A DNA stretch of 64,000 bases from a virus (lineage: Duplodnaviria; Caudoviricetes): positions 1 through 64,000 of IMG/VR virus record IMGVR_UViG_3300037067_007193; one strand, 5' to 3'. Each line of letters opens with the position of its first letter. Position 1 is the first letter of the stretch. This document shows positions 58,421-63,876 of the stretch, piece by piece. The notes under the pieces were generated by a model that saw only the letters and a list, made by a program, of their open reading frames with translations, was not told the origin of the DNA and did no database searches. The position numbers and the translations under genes were made by a program.

Positions 58421-58828
58421 ATGAAACTGACGGAGCATTTCACGCTTGAAGAATTTCGCTGCCGTTGCGGGTGCGGGTGTGAAAAAGACTGGATAGATGA
58501 GTGCCGCAAGACGGCAGAGATATTAGAAGAACTCCGCACTGTTATAGGGAACAAGCCCATCACGATCACTTGTGGAGTTAGGTGTCCCAAACACAATGCC
58601 AACGTGGGGGGTAAACCTCATAGCAAGCATTTGTCAACTGATTACCAGGGTGCGGCGGATACGTTTGTTCCTGATATGCCCGCTGAGATTTGGGCGCGTG
58701 CCGCATTCAGGAAGTTTCCGGGCTGCATTTTGTATACCAAGAAACATTTCGTTCACGTTGACCGTCGCCGCAACGAGAGTTACTACGCCATAGACGGGAA
58801 AAACGTGGACAACTTTGAGGAGGCTTGA
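58421..58828 (+). CDS. Peptidase M15 family endolysin
   Basis: HFTLEEFRCRCG, ITCGVRCPKHN..VGG...SKH, AAD, FVHVD. Confidence 0.9.
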   Translation: MKLTEHFTLEEFRCRCGCGCEKDWIDECRKTAEILEELRTVIGNKPITITCGVRCPKHNANVGGKPHSKHLSTDYQGAADTFVPDMPAEIWARAAFRKFPGCILYTKKHFVHVDRRRNESYYAIDGKNVDNFEEA

Positions 58829-59409: not shown

Positions 59410-59412
59410 ACA

Positions 59413-59437
59413 AAGCCCCGGCGATGAACCGGGGCTT
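59413..59437. terminator. Bidirectional terminator ending the late operon
   Basis: AAGCCCCGG-loop-CCGGGGCTT. Confidence 0.7.
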
Positions 59438-59456
59438 CTTGCCGCTGGTACTGCTA

Positions 59457-59628
59457 TCATTGGGCCTTGGCAGATTTTTCCTTTAGTCTGTTAGAAAAAG
59501 ATTCTTTTACTGAGTGCCGCCGACCAGAAAGACTTTGCCACGGGTATTCAGTAATGCGTGCCCGAACAACGCTTCCTCTTGACCATCCAAAATCAGAAAG
59601 TGCTTGTTGTTCTGCTGTTACAAAATTT
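59457..59628 (-). pseudogene. 3' part of a 77-aa phage ORF interrupted by the IS
   Basis: Joins in frame across the target duplication with 63807-63876. Confidence 0.75.
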
Positions 59629-59643
59629 GGTAGTGTCCTAATT

Positions 59644-60456
59644 TCAATCCAATAGATCATAAATATTCCAAAATCTATTTGTAATGCCCGCAGCCATAGC
59701 GGGTGTCACGCTAAGGCTTTTATGGGCGCGAACAAAGTTATAATGCGCGAAATGCAACGCGACTGCGGCGCGAAGATTTTCAATCTTCTTACTAAACGCA
59801 TTAGTAAGTCTTGTAAATCGCCTCATGCTCATTCGCATCGTGAGATTCTGGCGCTCAACGTAACTTGTCGAAATGCGTGCTATTTCTGGATGTCCACTAA
59901 CAGCACCACGCGCCGCACTCACAACTTTGGGTGGGCTGTAGCGGCCAGGGCCGATTGCTTCGGCTTCATATGTTTTGACTAATTGACCATAATCCACATT
60001 GCAACCAAATGCAGTTTCTATAGCTTCGGCGTATGCACTAAGGGCATCAGATGAAATCTGTACTCTATTTGCAAGACGTTCGGAAAGATCAACCATAAAT
60101 TTCGTAGCAGTCTCAAGATTTCTTTTGCCTACGATATGAGAAGGAACAAGTTTTGAGTCTGCATCAATCGCTACAAAAGTCCACTGATCCCCAACACGCT
60201 CAGGATTGTCAGTAAGGGTTACGTGCCTCTGTTTTTTCTGAACATAAGTCCATATTTCATCTACCTGAATGTGACCGCAAGGAAGATTTCGCAATGTTTC
60301 ATTCATAATATTTGCGCAGTTCTCTCCCGTAGAGACCGCCAGTCGCATGATGGTATCCCTGTGTACGCCGGTCATGCGCTCTGTAGATCGAATGGAATTG
60401 CCTTCAATCAGGCAACTTATTACCTGCACCCTTTTATCTTTCTTTAGTTTATTCAT
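59644..60456 (-). CDS. IS1-family DDE transposase (single ORF)
   Basis: HTH EGNSIRSTERMTGVHRDTI; QVDEIW (D), SSDA (D), STSYVERQNLTMR (E); stop abuts the left inverted repeat. Confidence 0.9.
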   Translation of the reverse strand: MNKLKKDKRVQVISCLIEGNSIRSTERMTGVHRDTIMRLAVSTGENCANIMNETLRNLPCGHIQVDEIWTYVQKKQRHVTLTDNPERVGDQWTFVAIDADSKLVPSHIVGKRNLETATKFMVDLSERLANRVQISSDALSAYAEAIETAFGCNVDYGQLVKTYEAEAIGPGRYSPPKVVSAARGAVSGHPEIARISTSYVERQNLTMRMSMRRFTRLTNAFSKKIENLRAAVALHFAHYNFVRAHKSLSVTPAMAAGITNRFWNIYDLLD

Positions 60457-60481
60457 GGTTGTATCCCCCCTTTACTATAAA

Positions 60482-60587
60482 TGTAGCAACAAAAAGCCCA
60501 CATGTCAAGTTATTGTCTTGATTTGTAGTCACAAAAGTGCTACATTATAAATGAGGGTTGACTTGTAGTCACAAAAGGGATACATTA
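60482..60587. promoter_or_regulatory. Divergent promoters with repeated operators
   Basis: Minus strand TTGACA-17-TACATT; plus strand TTGACT-17-TACATT; 30-bp direct repeat at 60518 and 60558; TGTAGYMACAAAA x3. Confidence 0.7.
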
Positions 60588-60604
60588 ACTAACACGGAGG
60601 AAAG

Positions 60605-60799
60605 ATGGAAAAAACAGAATCCATAAGAATCAGGCTTGAAGCAGAAGAAAAAAAGGCGTTTCAACAAGCGGCGGATTTATCAGGTCTTGGATTATCAACA
60701 TGGGCAAGGGAGCGCTTGCGGCGCTCGGCTATAAAAGAATTGGAAGAAGCCGCAATCCCCATAAAGTTTCTATTGCCAATAGAGCGGGAGGAAACATAA
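60605..60799 (+). CDS. RHH (DUF1778-like) regulator
   Basis: SIRIRLEAEEKKAFQQAADLSGLGLSTWARERL. Confidence 0.75.
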   Translation: MEKTESIRIRLEAEEKKAFQQAADLSGLGLSTWARERLRRSAIKELEEAAIPIKFLLPIEREET

Positions 60800-62503
60800 A
60801 TGGCCCAATTGCCCGAATCAATTGAATTTGAGATTAAGGGAATCGGAGAAGTACTGGCACAGAATCGCTTGGCTGTGCCTCTTAATCAAAGGGAATATTC
60901 GTGGGAAGAAGAACATATCAATGATTTATACACCGACTATGCCAATGCCATAGCAAAAGGACAAGGAAGTTATTTTTTAGGAACCATAGTTCTTACGCGG
61001 GGCGAAGGTGATGTTCCAGAAGTATCTGATGGGCAGCAGCGCCTTGCAACGTCCACAATCTTATTGGCGGCTATACGAGATTATTTTTTTAATAACGGCG
61101 ATAATGTTAGAGCCACATCAATTGAACAAGAATATTTATTAAAAACTGACATAACAACCACAGATATTGTTCCTCAACTCCGGCTAAATGTCGATGATAA
61201 TGAATTTTTTAGCAAATCCATTCTATCATCTCCGAGCAGTCCAGACAGGAATATAAAAGCCACCAAACTGTCTCATGAACGAATAGAGCTTGCCGCTAAA
61301 ACAGCGGCTGACCATATCGGAAATATAGTCAAACCCTTTGAAACAAAACCAAATCTCAAGACTGATCGCCTTCTTGAGTTGATAAAATTTATACGCAGGG
61401 GCGCACAAGTTATTCTACTTCGCGTTCCTACCCATCTTAATGCTTTTCTAATGTTTGAAACCCTTAATGATCGAGGATTAAAAATATCTCAAGCCGATTT
61501 ATTAAAGAATCATCTTTTTAGTTTTGCTGGTGACAGAATGAGAGAAGCGCAACACAAATGGTCAAAAATGTCTGGAATATTAGAATCTTTGGGAAAGGAA
61601 GATATCACTGTTACATTCCTCCATCATCTTTTAATCACAAAATACGGCCCCACAAAAGAAAGAGAAGTTTTTGATAAGGTCAGGCAGTTAGTTACCAGCC
61701 AGAATCGCTCAATTGAATTTTTGGAGGAGTTGGCCGATTCGGCGAACGACTACGCTGCGCTTTTTAATCCAGACCACAAGAAATGGAATGAATATGGAAC
61801 GACAACAAGAAAGAATATCTCTACAATAAACCGTGACTTGCGCATCGAACAGATTCGCCCGCTTATGTTTTCGGTGGCACGCCATTTTTCTGTTGAAGAA
61901 GGCAAGGCGGCTTTTCGCCTCTTCGTTTTTTGGTCTGTAAGAATTCTTGTTTATGGCACTCGTGGCGGATTTTTAGATCGTAATTATAGTATGCGGGCAC
62001 AAGATATCGCAGATAGGAAGATTACCACGGCGGATGGCCTGAGAGAATCATTAACCGATGTTATACCTACAGATGCAATGTTTGAATCTGCTTTCGCGGA
62101 AGCACGCACTTCGCATCCTTATCTTGCGAGATATTATCTTCGGGCTTTGGAATTAAAACGCAAAGGTGATCCCGAACCTGAATTTGTTCCCTCGGATGAG
62201 GAACAATCAATCAACCTGGAACATGTTCTTCCAGAAAATCCAACCCCCGCCGAATGGTCAGATATTGATGCAGACACGGCGAAGGCTTTTTATTCAAAAA
62301 TTGGGAATATGGTTATCTTACAGGCTAAAAAGAATACTTTGATAGGTAATAGCCGCTTCGACATTAAGAAGCCCGTTTTGAGAGAGTCTGCCTATATACT
62401 CACACAGCAGGTGGCAGAATATTCAAAATGGGGAATAGATGAGATTAAAGACAGGCAGAAAAAGCTGGCCGCATTGGCAGTGCAAACATGGCCGTTAACA
62501 TAG
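60800..62503 (+). CDS. DUF262-DUF1524 nuclease (GmrSD/SspE-like defence protein)
   Basis: VPLNQREYSW, YFLGTIV, DGQQRLAT, FETLNDRG; C-terminal LEHVLP...IGNMVIL...N. Confidence 0.9.
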   Translation: MAQLPESIEFEIKGIGEVLAQNRLAVPLNQREYSWEEEHINDLYTDYANAIAKGQGSYFLGTIVLTRGEGDVPEVSDGQQRLATSTILLAAIRDYFFNNGDNVRATSIEQEYLLKTDITTTDIVPQLRLNVDDNEFFSKSILSSPSSPDRNIKATKLSHERIELAAKTAADHIGNIVKPFETKPNLKTDRLLELIKFIRRGAQVILLRVPTHLNAFLMFETLNDRGLKISQADLLKNHLFSFAGDRMREAQHKWSKMSGILESLGKEDITVTFLHHLLITKYGPTKEREVFDKVRQLVTSQNRSIEFLEELADSANDYAALFNPDHKKWNEYGTTTRKNISTINRDLRIEQIRPLMFSVARHFSVEEGKAAFRLFVFWSVRILVYGTRGGFLDRNYSMRAQDIADRKITTADGLRESLTDVIPTDAMFESAFAEARTSHPYLARYYLRALELKRKGDPEPEFVPSDEEQSINLEHVLPENPTPAEWSDIDADTAKAFYSKIGNMVILQAKKNTLIGNSRFDIKKPVLRESAYILTQQVAEYSKWGIDEIKDRQKKLAALAVQTWPLT

Positions 62504-62504
62504 A

Positions 62505-62834
62505 ATGATAAGCAAGGGAATTAACCCAATGGAAGAAAACGTTGACGAATTGCAAAAAGGGATTGAGCAACTACAAAAATGCAAAGCCAATCTTTTGGAA
62601 TCCGCTCCTATATCAGAGACATTTCAGGATAAGACCGTTTGGCAGGGAATTGTTTATGTGTTTTCTCTGATTGGACATCCGACAGCAACAAAATGTTATG
62701 CGTGGTCTTCGCCGATAGAGGGTAGTAAAAAACGGCGAATCTATACGGTTTTGAATGTGCCGCCCGTGGACTCACCAGAAAAAGCTGTCCGTGCCGCTAT
62801 TGTTTCTGATTATAAATCAGGACAATTGAAATAG
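62505..62834 (+). CDS. Small IS-associated protein of unknown function
   Basis: ETFQDKTVWQGIVYVFSLIGHP...CYAWSS...PPVDSPEKAVRAAIV; alternative start 62529. Confidence 0.75.
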   Translation: MISKGINPMEENVDELQKGIEQLQKCKANLLESAPISETFQDKTVWQGIVYVFSLIGHPTATKCYAWSSPIEGSKKRRIYTVLNVPPVDSPEKAVRAAIVSDYKSGQLK

Positions 62835-62892
62835 ATCATACATGACCGGAATTATCCCTTTCCAAACCCTAAAATTTTTTTTGCTCTATCTC

Positions 62893-62996
62893 TTGACAAA
62901 AGGATACGAATATCTTATATTGAAGTGTAGAGGAATTTTCTCTACTTTTATTCACTTGGGGCTGTGCGGAGCCGCGCCTTCGCATAGCCCTTTTTT
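62893..62996 (+). ncRNA. Promoter plus ~70-nt ORF-less transcript ending in a strong terminator (candidate sRNA)
   Basis: TTGACA-17-TATATT (62893-62921); GTAGAG/CTCTAC hairpin; 12-bp GGGCTGTGCGGA stem plus U6. Confidence 0.5.
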
Positions 62997-63059
62997 GTTT
63001 GTATAGCACATCATGTTTTGGACGAAAAATTTATGGAAAATCTAATTGCAATATCAATT

Positions 63060-63653
63060 TTATGCGGAGTCGTTGGGGCTTTGCCTGTTATTTTGTTTGA
63101 GATAATCTCTCAGCGTTGCAATGGCAATTTCGACATCTTTGTCAATATTTTTGTACGGATAAGAAACGGCTATATGTTTGTAAAAGGGAAACTCTGCTAA
63201 CCGCTTAAGGGTGGAGGCTGACAATTTGTCGGCAGACATTTCACGTCTGGCTAACATTAATAAAAGTTTGTACAAGTTGATTTTATTCCAAAGGTCGTCA
63301 ATCTGCTCTAAATTAATCGCCCGATTAACAGCCACTGCGAATCCACAACAAAGGCTTAAAACATCTCTTGGTGCAACGGCTGAATTTGTGGTTACTACAC
63401 ATTGCAATCCAGAAGCCTTGTTTTGAACATTTTTGAGCTTGTTTTCTTTCTCGGATGAATCGCGGGCTACGATAAATTCGTTAAAGGCCGAAAATAATAA
63501 ACGGAAAAATTCTAATTTGTCCTTGTATAAACATTGGCCGTACTGATGTTTTTGGGTTGAGCGCATAACCACATAAGTACATAGGCTGGCGATTAAGCTG
63601 CTTACAAGGGCGACCGCCAAGGAATTATATATTGATTCCAAACACACAGACAT
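63060..63653 (-). CDS. IS passenger: membrane-anchored hypothetical protein (197 aa)
   Basis: ATG 63653 with SD AAAGG; N-terminal TM; promoter TTGACA-17-GATAAT at 63696-63724. Confidence 0.7.
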   Translation of the reverse strand: MSVCLESIYNSLAVALVSSLIASLCTYVVMRSTQKHQYGQCLYKDKLEFFRLLFSAFNEFIVARDSSEKENKLKNVQNKASGLQCVVTTNSAVAPRDVLSLCCGFAVAVNRAINLEQIDDLWNKINLYKLLLMLARREMSADKLSASTLKRLAEFPFYKHIAVSYPYKNIDKDVEIAIATLRDYLKQNNRQSPNDSA

Positions 63654-63806
63654 AGCCTTTCTTGAAATTAAAAAAGGACGGCTTTTGACCGTCCCATTAT
63701 CACACTCTGACAATCTGCTGTCAATCTATTTTTCTTTCCGATCCTTTCCCTTCTTCGGCGGCTTCGTCTCCAAATAAAAATCTCATTTTCAAATTAGGAC
63801 ACTACC

Positions 63807-63876
63807 CAAAATTTGGTGCTTGAAGCATTGCAGATGCTATCATGTATCCATCAGAGATGTCTATATCGTATTTCAA
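63807..63876 (-). pseudogene. 5' part of the IS-interrupted phage ORF
   Basis: TTG start with SD AAGGAG; MKYDIDISDGYMIASAMLQAPNF continues as VTAEQQALSD at 59620. Confidence 0.75.

What the first reader, a model, noticed from the sequence alone, without database searches (positions are those of the whole stretch)
59621..63814. Recent IS1-family 'transporter' element delivering a GmrSD-like defence nuclease into a phage
Perfect 16-bp terminal inverted repeats and an 8-bp target duplication define 4,178 bp. Removing it restores an in-frame 77-aa phage ORF, so the insertion is recent. One transposase plus four passengers (RHH, DUF262-DUF1524, a small protein, a membrane protein) and a possible sRNA lie inside a single pair of ends. 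IS1 elements with passengers are known (ISMhu11 subgroup). A self-contained defence-carrying IS hitch-hiking on a phage would let the lysogen restrict modified-DNA competitors.
Basis: partly seen in the sequence, partly recalled or inferred. Interest (0 to 1): 0.8.

Follow-up and report, generated by a model that had tools for sequence, protein, structure and literature searches.

The report
IS1-type transposon carrying phage-defence nuclease
A 4.2-kb jumping gene of the IS1 family has landed as one unit inside a small gene of a phage, carrying a GmrSD-like (HEC-06 type) anti-phage nuclease; it belongs to a large, apparently undescribed lineage with two fixed genes and an interchangeable slot that mostly holds defence genes.

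Summary
There are perfect 16-bp inverted ends (59629-59644 / 63791-63806) and an 8-bp duplication (CAAAATTT). The element is 4,178 bp. Removing it rebuilds a 77-codon phage ORF that is translationally coupled to the gene upstream.

The transposase is IS1-type: it passes the Pfam gathering score and has an intact D66/D137/E201 triad.

The predicted sister elements exist. In bacterial MAGs and one metagenome contig, 29 loci with transposases 58-74% identical all carry the identical 16-nt end motif. Of 21 complete elements, 19 have perfect 8-bp duplications at different sites.

Only two blocks are conserved between sisters: the transposase and the 109-aa ORF. So that ORF is a core gene, not a passenger. 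The slot between them holds HEC-06, HEC-04, AbiU, AbiL, SoFic, DpdB-like, Schlafen-like and other genes. Cargo types are interleaved on the transposase tree.

The 217-aa "membrane protein" has no homologue anywhere. The sRNA-like unit is not conserved in the closest sister.

I found no empty site and no second copy, so "recent" rests on the intact duplication, intact genes and a GC content about 10 points lower than the flanks.

Earlier reports of this scan noted the same element family on at least seven other genomes. I found no paper describing it.

The parts
59621..59628 (.). Left copy of the 8-bp target-site duplication (CAAAATTT)
   Evidence: It is identical to 63807-63814.
59629..59644 (+). 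Terminal inverted repeat on the transposase side (GGTAGTGTCCTAATTT). The transposase stop codon abuts its inner edge.
   Evidence: The same 16-mer ends all relatives of the closest clade.
59644..60456 (-). IS1-type DDE transposase, 270 aa, single ORF. It has an N-terminal HTH and the conserved residues D66, D137 and E201 with an ERxN...R motif.
   Evidence: Pfam PF03400 scores 35.6 bits against a gathering score of 24.1. NCBIfam IS1 is the best hit but lies below its cut-off. The invariant residues come from 128 relatives. PGAP names relatives 'IS1 family transposase'.
60480..60587 (.). Divergent control region. Two 30-nt direct repeats (60518-60547, 60558-60587) each look like a promoter with an internal TTGT..ACAA palindrome. 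Promoter-like sites face both the transposase and the cargo operon.
   Evidence: (family D1, 90% identity, 40-nt spacing). Operator function is inferred.
60605..60799 (+). Ribbon-helix-helix protein, 64 aa, first gene of the cargo operon. It is the likely repressor of the repeats upstream.
   Evidence: Pfam NikA-like scores 28.8 bits against a gathering score of 27, and there is a weak RelB-like hit. Homologues hold the same position in sister elements.
60800..62503 (+). GmrSD-like nuclease of the HEC-06 type, 567 aa. It has a DUF262 domain with DGQQR and a DUF1524 His-Me finger (LEHVLP...N..N).
   Evidence: Pfam GmrSD_N 3e-27 and GmrSD_C 6e-22. PADLOC HEC-06 matches at 8.6e-170 over the full length. 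The motifs are aligned to 9jfl and SspE. HEC-06 is reported as an antiviral system in 10.1101/2024.01.29.577857.
62505..62834 (+). Core gene of the lineage ('p109'). The conserved part starts at the ATG at 62529. It sits tightly behind the cargo gene and its function is unknown.
   Evidence: tblastn finds it in every complete sister element. At least 7,829 clusters exist, all unnamed and without Pfam. The AF2 model has pLDDT 85.6 with an alpha-beta4-alpha layout and no structural match.
62893..63000 (+). Promoter-like site (TTGACA-17-TATATT), a small hairpin, and a strong terminator hairpin with a T-run. This is either a roughly 75-nt RNA or simply the operon terminator.
   Evidence: z = -6.1. 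No Rfam family matches. The region is not conserved in the closest sister L234.
63060..63713 (-). 217-aa ORF (probably 197 aa from the ATG at 63653) with one N-terminal hydrophobic segment. It is an ORFan unique to this copy.
   Evidence: The only match in 5.8 billion clusters is itself. The Atlas model is poor, with pLDDT 0.54. There is no significant Pfam or PADLOC hit.
63675..63724 (-). Near-consensus promoter (TTGACA-17-TG-GATAAT) overlapping a terminator-like hairpin, just inside the end. It may insulate the element from phage read-through and drive the 217-aa ORF.
   Evidence: The function is inferred.
63791..63806 (-). Terminal inverted repeat on the cargo side
63807..63814 (.). Right copy of the 8-bp target-site duplication
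59457..59628 (-). C-terminal part of the interrupted 77-aa phage ORF. The N-terminal part is 63815-63876.
   Evidence: One search gives the reconstruction. One search gives the upstream ORF, whose stop overlaps the TTG start. No PHROG match was found.

Best explanation
The stretch 59629-63806 is one intact unit transposon (a 'transporter IS') of the IS1 family. It inserted by a DDE transposase cut with an 8-bp stagger into the last small gene of a leftward phage operon, next to the lysis cassette of a ~75.6-kb phage that encodes integrases.

Its backbone is two conserved modules. One is the single-ORF IS1-type transposase, which recognises the invariant end GGTAGTGTCCTAATTT(GA). The other is a ~100-aa protein of unknown function.

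Between them lies an exchangeable slot. Here it holds a two-gene module. The first gene is a ribbon-helix-helix protein that most likely represses the two repeated promoter-operator units in the divergent control region. The second is a HEC-06-type GmrSD-like enzyme (DUF262 NTPase plus DUF1524 His-Me nuclease), which most likely restricts incoming phage DNA and so protects a lysogen or host that carries the element.

Shown: the element's boundaries, family relations, conserved backbone, cargo exchange among relatives, and intact catalytic motifs.

Inferred: current mobility, repression by the RHH protein, restriction activity and its substrate, and any role of the 109-aa and 217-aa ORFs.
For: - Ends, duplication and ORF restoration.
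- IS1-type domain above the Pfam gathering score; relatives named IS1 family transposase.
- D66/D137/E201 invariant in 128 relatives.
- 28 genome loci (58-68% identical transposase, mostly 62-68%) plus the closest sister L234 (74%) all carry the identical 16-nt end motif. Of 21 complete elements, 19 have perfect 8-bp duplications at different sites.
- Only the transposase and the 109-aa gene are conserved at nucleotide level between sisters.
- The slot holds HEC-06, HEC-04, AbiU, AbiLi/ii, SoFic, DpdB-like, Schlafen-like, XRE-M78 and other genes.
- Cargo types are interleaved on the transposase tree.
- The nuclease matches PADLOC HEC-06 at 8.6e-170 with DGQQR and His-Me motifs. HEC-06 is reported as antiviral.
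- Element GC is ~0.39-0.44 against ~0.50-0.55 in the flanks.
- Phage context: endolysin phrog_894 at 58421-58828, phrog_2045 downstream, tyrosine recombinases on the record, CheckV completeness 90%.
Against: - There is only one copy on the record.
- No empty site was found in viral or metagenome contigs, and no close relative of the phage was available for comparison.
- The NCBIfam IS1 equivalog score (63.8) is below its cut-off of 100, so the transposase is a distant IS1 relative.
- The end motif is invariant across the lineage, so perfect ends say nothing about age.
- No activity of any gene has been tested.
- The interrupted 77-aa ORF has no known homologue.
Confidence: 0.82

Rival explanations
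1. The insertion is old and the element is now a fixed, immobile part of this phage lineage rather than a recent arrival.
For: No empty site and no second copy were found. The 16-nt ends are invariant across relatives that differ by 30-40% in protein sequence. Perfect duplications persist in 19 of 21 sisters. So these features do not date the event.
Against: GC is about 10 points below the flanks with sharp borders. All element genes are open, the DDE triad is intact, and the duplication is 8/8. The split ORF still joins in frame, with no further decay in either half.
Confidence: 0.15
2. The RHH-nuclease pair acts mainly as a toxin-antitoxin-like addiction module that stabilises the transposon, or the prophage that carries it, rather than as a true anti-phage defence.
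For: The RHH protein gives weak RelB/TacA-type antitoxin hits. Sister slots often hold toxin-like genes such as Fic, AbiL and XRE-M78 pairs. The same RHH-nuclease pair also occurs free-standing.
Against: The antitoxin hits are below the curated cut-offs. The nuclease matches the HEC-06 model over its full length, and that family was reported to protect against phages. The two roles are not mutually exclusive.
Confidence: 0.12
3. The junctions are an assembly artefact: an IS from a bacterial genome was wrongly joined into a phage contig.
For: Metagenome assemblers can join contigs at repeats. The record is a metagenome-derived virus record with a single copy of the element.
Against: A chimera would not create an 8-bp direct duplication, nor flanks that rejoin into one translationally coupled ORF. 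Phage genes lie on both sides.
Confidence: 0.03

Closest known systems
IS1 of Escherichia coli and the IS1 family as defined in ISfinder (including the single-ORF subgroups; ISMhu11 subgroup from my own recollection)
   Same: It has an IS1-type DDE domain (Pfam PF03400). The TS.VERQN...R..R.T.AFSKK block resembles the IS1 InsB motif as I recall it. The ends begin GGT..TG, the target duplication is 8 bp, and the transposase reading frame runs up to the inverted repeat.
   Different: The transposase is a single 270-aa ORF with no insA/insB' frameshift. It scores below the NCBIfam IS1 equivalog cut-off. The element is 4.2 kb rather than 0.77 kb. It has a conserved second gene of unknown function that is unrelated to InsA, and a cargo slot.
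Transporter IS (tIS) and mobile insertion cassettes (MICs), concepts of the ISfinder group (tIS defined in PMC9330008)
   Same: The passenger genes lie inside a single pair of IS ends and move with the transposase. A transposase-less derivative also exists: L145, 790 bp, with perfect ends and duplication.
   Different: Here the cargo is systematically defence-type, and it sits in a fixed slot between two conserved modules.
HEC-06, a GmrSD-like single-protein defence (bioRxiv 10.1101/2024.01.29.577857); more distantly GmrSD, BrxU, SspE
   Same: The match to the PADLOC HEC-06 model is full-length (8.6e-170), and the DGQQR and His-Me motifs are present.
   Different: HEC-06 was described as embedded in Hma systems. 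Here it is preceded by an RHH gene and carried on a transposon in a phage. Its substrate is unknown.
Tn7-like transposons with defence cargo (PMC8649781)
   Same: These are transposons whose variable cargo is rich in defence systems.
   Different: The transposition machinery is unrelated (one small DDE enzyme against TnsABC+D/E). The elements here are much smaller (2.6-6.8 kb) and usually hold one system per element.

Membership tests
IS1 family (ISfinder) | DDE transposase with the IS1-type catalytic domain | tested here: met
   PF03400 scores 35.6 bits against a gathering score of 24.1. The invariant residues D66, D137 and E201 and the ERxN..R block are present. Relatives at 48-52% identity are annotated 'IS1 family transposase'.
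IS1 family (ISfinder) | Score above the NCBIfam IS1 equivalog cut-off (NF033558) | tested here: not met
   The score is 63.8 bits against a cut-off of 100. IS1 is still the best-scoring IS family, ahead of IS6 and IS481. This makes it a distant member, not IS1 proper.
IS1 family (ISfinder) | Terminal inverted repeats beginning GGT..TG and a target duplication of 8-9 bp (features recalled from ISfinder) | tested here: met
   The ends read GGTAGTG..., with 16/16 inverted repeats and an 8-bp duplication. The same holds in 19 of 21 sisters.
IS1 proper (IS1A type) | insA and insB' joined by a programmed -1 frameshift | tested here: not met
   The transposase is one uninterrupted 270-aa ORF that aligns end to end with relatives.
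ISMhu11 subgroup of IS1 | Sequence relationship to ISMhu11 and its relatives | not testable with these tools
   No ISfinder sequences were available, and the name occurs in no paper of the library.
Transporter IS (tIS) | Passenger genes inside one pair of IS ends, flanked by one target duplication | tested here: met
   The definition is in PMC9330008.
GmrSD-like defence, HEC-06 type | N-terminal DUF262 with DGQQR, C-terminal DUF1524 His-Me finger, and a full-length match to the HEC-06 model | tested here: met
GmrSD-like defence, HEC-06 type | Restriction of phage DNA (modified or otherwise) | not testable with these tools
   This needs a plaque assay. The family's activity is taken from the preprint.
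Type II toxin-antitoxin (RHH antitoxin) | An antitoxin family match above the cut-off, and a cognate toxin | tested here: inconclusive
   RelB_antitoxin scores 23.6 bits against 50, and TacA1 scores 14.2 against 21. NikA-like RHH is just above its gathering score.

The most novel reading that the evidence does not exclude
This copy is one member of a very large lineage of IS1-like unit transposons that I could not find described. The lineage is built as a dedicated shuttle for small defence systems.

Its fixed backbone is the transposase plus a ~100-aa protein of new fold and unknown role, represented by at least 7,800 sequence clusters. The end sequence is invariant. The slot exchanges one- or two-gene defence systems faster than the transposase diverges. 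Insertion often occurs exactly 7 bp upstream of a -35-like TTGAC box.

Such elements could be one route by which systems such as HEC-04 and HEC-06 become scattered into phages, plasmids and other defence loci.
Probability: 0.4. Interest if true: 0.75.

Novelty: new variant of a known kind. Interest (0 to 1): 0.55.

Why it matters
Defence genes are known to travel on prophages, satellites, integrons and Tn7-like transposons. A minimal IS-sized vehicle would add a very small and very abundant layer to that traffic. This one has one transposase and one unknown helper, exchanges defence cargo, and can land in a phage.

It also gives concrete handles for experiments:
- an invariant 16-18-nt end;
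- a conserved protein with no known fold match, whose role in transposition, regulation or cargo control can be tested;
- a natural series of elements that differ only in cargo.

For this phage, the insertion would turn it into a carrier of a type IV-like restriction enzyme. That could change competition between phages in the host population.

Tried and rejected
- **Empty site:** I searched a 29-mer in viral contigs and a 24-mer in metagenome contigs. Both returned nothing.
- **Related phages for comparison:** the 178-aa neighbour gave no relative, and the endolysin gave only 33-45% identical hits. The phage has no close relative in IMG/VR.
- **Second copy on the record:** none.
- **Function of the 109-aa protein:** Pfam, NCBIfam and PADLOC gave nothing. 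Foldseek against PDB and BFVD gave no match at E <= 0.001. The exhaustive VIA search gave a best Z of 5.7, which is only generic alpha+beta / cystatin-like resemblance. I considered a HicA/dsRBD-like reading and dropped it for lack of any hit.
- **The 217-aa ORF:** no homologue, and the Atlas neighbours are at chance level.
- **sRNA:** Rfam gave only a sub-threshold SR6-antitoxin hit (25.7 bits against a gathering score of 55), which I rejected.
- **L234 context:** its flank shares nothing with this phage.
- **Link to Hma-embedded genes:** only 3.1% of Hma-embedded genes encode mobility proteins, so there is no direct support.
- **Literature:** 'ISMhu11' gave 0 papers. Searches for IS1 with defence or passenger genes found no description of this lineage.
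Full report
**Observation.**
- The 16-nt sequence GGTAGTGTCCTAATTT at 59629-59644 is the perfect reverse complement of 63791-63806. CAAAATTT flanks both ends, at 59621-59628 and 63807-63814. The element is 4,178 bp.
- Removing it with one duplication copy gives a minus-strand frame that is open for 90 codons. It contains a 77-codon ORF from a TTG at 63876-63874.
- That TTG is preceded by AAGGAG and overlaps the stop of the upstream 97-aa ORF (TTGA). This argues that the ORF is a real, translationally coupled last gene of a leftward phage operon.
- The operon is convergent with the lysis cassette: endolysin phrog_894 lies at 58421-58828, and a bidirectional terminator lies at 59412-59438.
- The window is bases 1-64000 of a 75,588-bp virus record, estimated 90% complete. 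The record carries two tyrosine-recombinase matches and only one copy of the element.
- Element GC is 0.39-0.44, against 0.50-0.55 in the flanks.

**Transposase.** The 270-aa ORF at 59644-60456(-) passes the Pfam gathering score for DDE_Tnp_IS1.
- IS1 is its best NCBIfam family, but the score of 63.8 bits is below the equivalog cut-off of 100.
- Relatives at 48-52% identity on plasmids of cultured Mesorhizobium, Acidiphilium and Hoeflea are annotated 'IS1 family transposase'.
- In an alignment of 128 relatives, D66, D137 and E201 are invariant, as is the block around E201-R202-x-N204. All are present here.
- It is a single ORF without an insA/insB' frameshift. I therefore read it as a distant, single-ORF member of the IS1 family.

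**Sister elements.** A scan of one genome per prokaryote species found more than 571 relatives.
- The 28 closest are 58-68% identical (mostly 62-68%). Most come from Alphaproteobacteria MAGs, with others from Syntrophobacteraceae, Acidobacteriaceae, Myxococcales and Gammaproteobacteria.
- All of them carry the same 16-nt motif at their ends.
- Of 21 complete elements (2.65-6.8 kb), 19 have perfect 8-bp duplications, each at a different site.
- The largest two contain nested IS1380-like and IS66 insertions.
- The closest relative overall is a metagenome contig, L234: transposase 74%, RHH 72%, nuclease 77%, 109-aa protein 59%. It has about 70% nucleotide identity from 59626 to 62803 and diverges after that.
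- A more distant subclade has the ends GGTAGTGnnTCAGTTTGAA. I found it in many IMG/VR contigs and genomes. It also has 8-bp duplications and cargo, but a different conserved small basic gene.

**Backbone and slot.** Pairwise nucleotide comparison of sisters shows similarity in only two blocks: the transposase gene and the homologue of the 109-aa ORF.
- The 109-aa ORF is present in every complete element of the clade. It is usually coupled to or overlaps the preceding gene.
- A 790-bp transposase-less derivative with perfect ends and duplication carries this gene alone.
- It has at least 7,829 sequence clusters in the 5.8-billion-protein collection. All are unnamed and have no Pfam family.
- The AlphaFold model is confident (pLDDT 85.6; helix, four strands, helix). 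It has no convincing match in PDB or BFVD.
- It is therefore a core gene of unknown function, not a passenger.
- The slot between it and the transposase holds the following:
  - HEC-06-type nucleases, usually behind an RHH gene (this element, L234, L066, L067, L072, L074, L078, L081, L084);
  - HEC-04 (3e-203), AbiU/AIPR, AbiLi+AbiLii and SoFic;
  - a DpdB/DndB-like pair and Schlafen/AlbA_2-HATPase proteins;
  - an XRE-M78 pair, an AAA_14-DUF4143 ATPase, and P63C, DUF433 and DUF5343 proteins;
  - several genes with no match.
- On a maximum-likelihood tree of the transposases, cargo types are interleaved. Near-identical transposases carry different cargo, and HEC-06 occurs in at least five separate places.
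- This element's nuclease is closer (61-68%) to free-standing RHH-nuclease pairs that have no transposase nearby than to most transposon-borne ones (38-46%). That points to repeated capture.

**The cargo here.** The nuclease (567 aa) has GmrSD_N and GmrSD_C domains, the DGQQR motif and the LEH...N..N His-Me motif.
- It matches the PADLOC HEC-06 model end to end at 8.6e-170.
- HEC-06 is reported as an antiviral, GmrSD-like single-protein system distinct from BrxU and SspE.
- The RHH gene abuts the nuclease gene.
- Upstream lie two 30-nt direct repeats, 40 nt apart. Each resembles a promoter with an internal TTGT..ACAA palindrome. Promoter-like sites also face the transposase. I infer autoregulation by the RHH protein.

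**Uncertain parts.**
- The 217-aa ORF has no homologue other than itself and only a weak model. The gene caller of the source record called a shorter 168-aa version.
- The promoter-hairpin-terminator unit at 62893-63000 is real as sequence and folds well. It matches no Rfam family and lies in the part not shared with L234. The terminator may simply end the cargo operon.

**Recency.** I found no empty site. The phage has no close relative to compare with. The perfect ends are a family constant, so they do not date the event. What supports a young insertion is:
- the 8/8 duplication;
- the in-frame rejoining of the split ORF;
- the intact genes;
- the compositional contrast with the flanks.
A chimeric assembly is very unlikely, because the duplication and the rejoining ORF would not arise that way.

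**Comparison and novelty.**
- The kind of element is known. It is a transporter IS (PMC9330008) of the IS1 family.
- The cargo family is known (HEC-06).
- Transposon-borne defence is known for Tn7-like elements (PMC8649781).
- I could not find described the lineage-level pattern: an invariant end, a two-module backbone with an unknown conserved protein, and rapid exchange of defence cargo.
- Earlier reports of this scan noted the same family on at least seven other genomes. One of them was in a phage packaging gene. My analysis reached the same picture independently from this window.
- One of those notes proposed insertion at a fixed distance from promoters. I tested this. In 10 of 45 rebuilt target sites, TTGAC starts exactly 7 nt beyond the duplication on the transposase side. 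This element's own site is not of that type.

**Verdict.** It is a new variant of a known kind. It is of moderate interest as a single case and of higher interest as a family.

Noticed in passing
L069, L076, L088, L013, L030, L035, L099, L104, L129 and others (rebuilt target sites): In 10 of 45 insertion sites with perfect duplications, a -35-like TTGAC starts exactly 7 nt beyond the duplication on the transposase side. Only 3 other TTGAC occurrences appear anywhere in the 88-nt windows. This suggests oriented targeting just upstream of promoters. The site in this window does not show it.
   Followed up: partly
L145:6707-7496: A 790-bp transposase-less derivative has perfect 16-nt ends and the 8-bp duplication CGCGGCGG, and encodes only the homologue of the 109-aa protein. 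L153 and L156 look similar but less clean.
   Followed up: partly
L008-L042, L093-L138; L248 (Mesorhizobium loti plasmid CP050295.1): A sister subclade with the ends GGTAGTGnnTCAGTTTGAA has its own conserved small basic gene next to the distal end (KKPKRPRD...GRLGGLKGGKARA motif, annotated 'histone H1' by PGAP). Its cargo includes XRE-M78 peptidase pairs, P63C proteins and a DNA methylase.
   Followed up: partly
L235-L243 (metagenome contigs): RHH plus HEC-06-type nuclease pairs that are 61-68% identical to this one occur without any transposase, 109-aa gene or end motif nearby. These are probable sources or sinks of the cargo module.
   Followed up: no
L072:1985-3325 and L092:4559-6211: Other insertion sequences (IS1380-like DDE_Tnp_1_4, and IS66) are nested inside two sister elements, which explains their larger size. 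The transposase in L086 carries an internal stop.
   Followed up: no
window 63675-63724 (-): A near-consensus extended -10 promoter overlaps a terminator-like hairpin immediately inside the cargo-side end. Read-through from the interrupted phage operon would enter the element here.
   Followed up: no
L234:148-2772: The closest sister element sits downstream of a CBM_5_12 protein and a Laminin_G_3 / glycine-rich 587-aa protein, which look like phage tail-fibre-type genes. That copy may also lie in a phage, but its flank shares nothing with this window.
   Followed up: partly
ON529850.1 (Brevundimonas phage vB_BpoS-Gurke) 174800-175666: The only cultured-phage record with a relative of this transposase has 32% identity over the full length, with no feature annotated there.
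   Followed up: no
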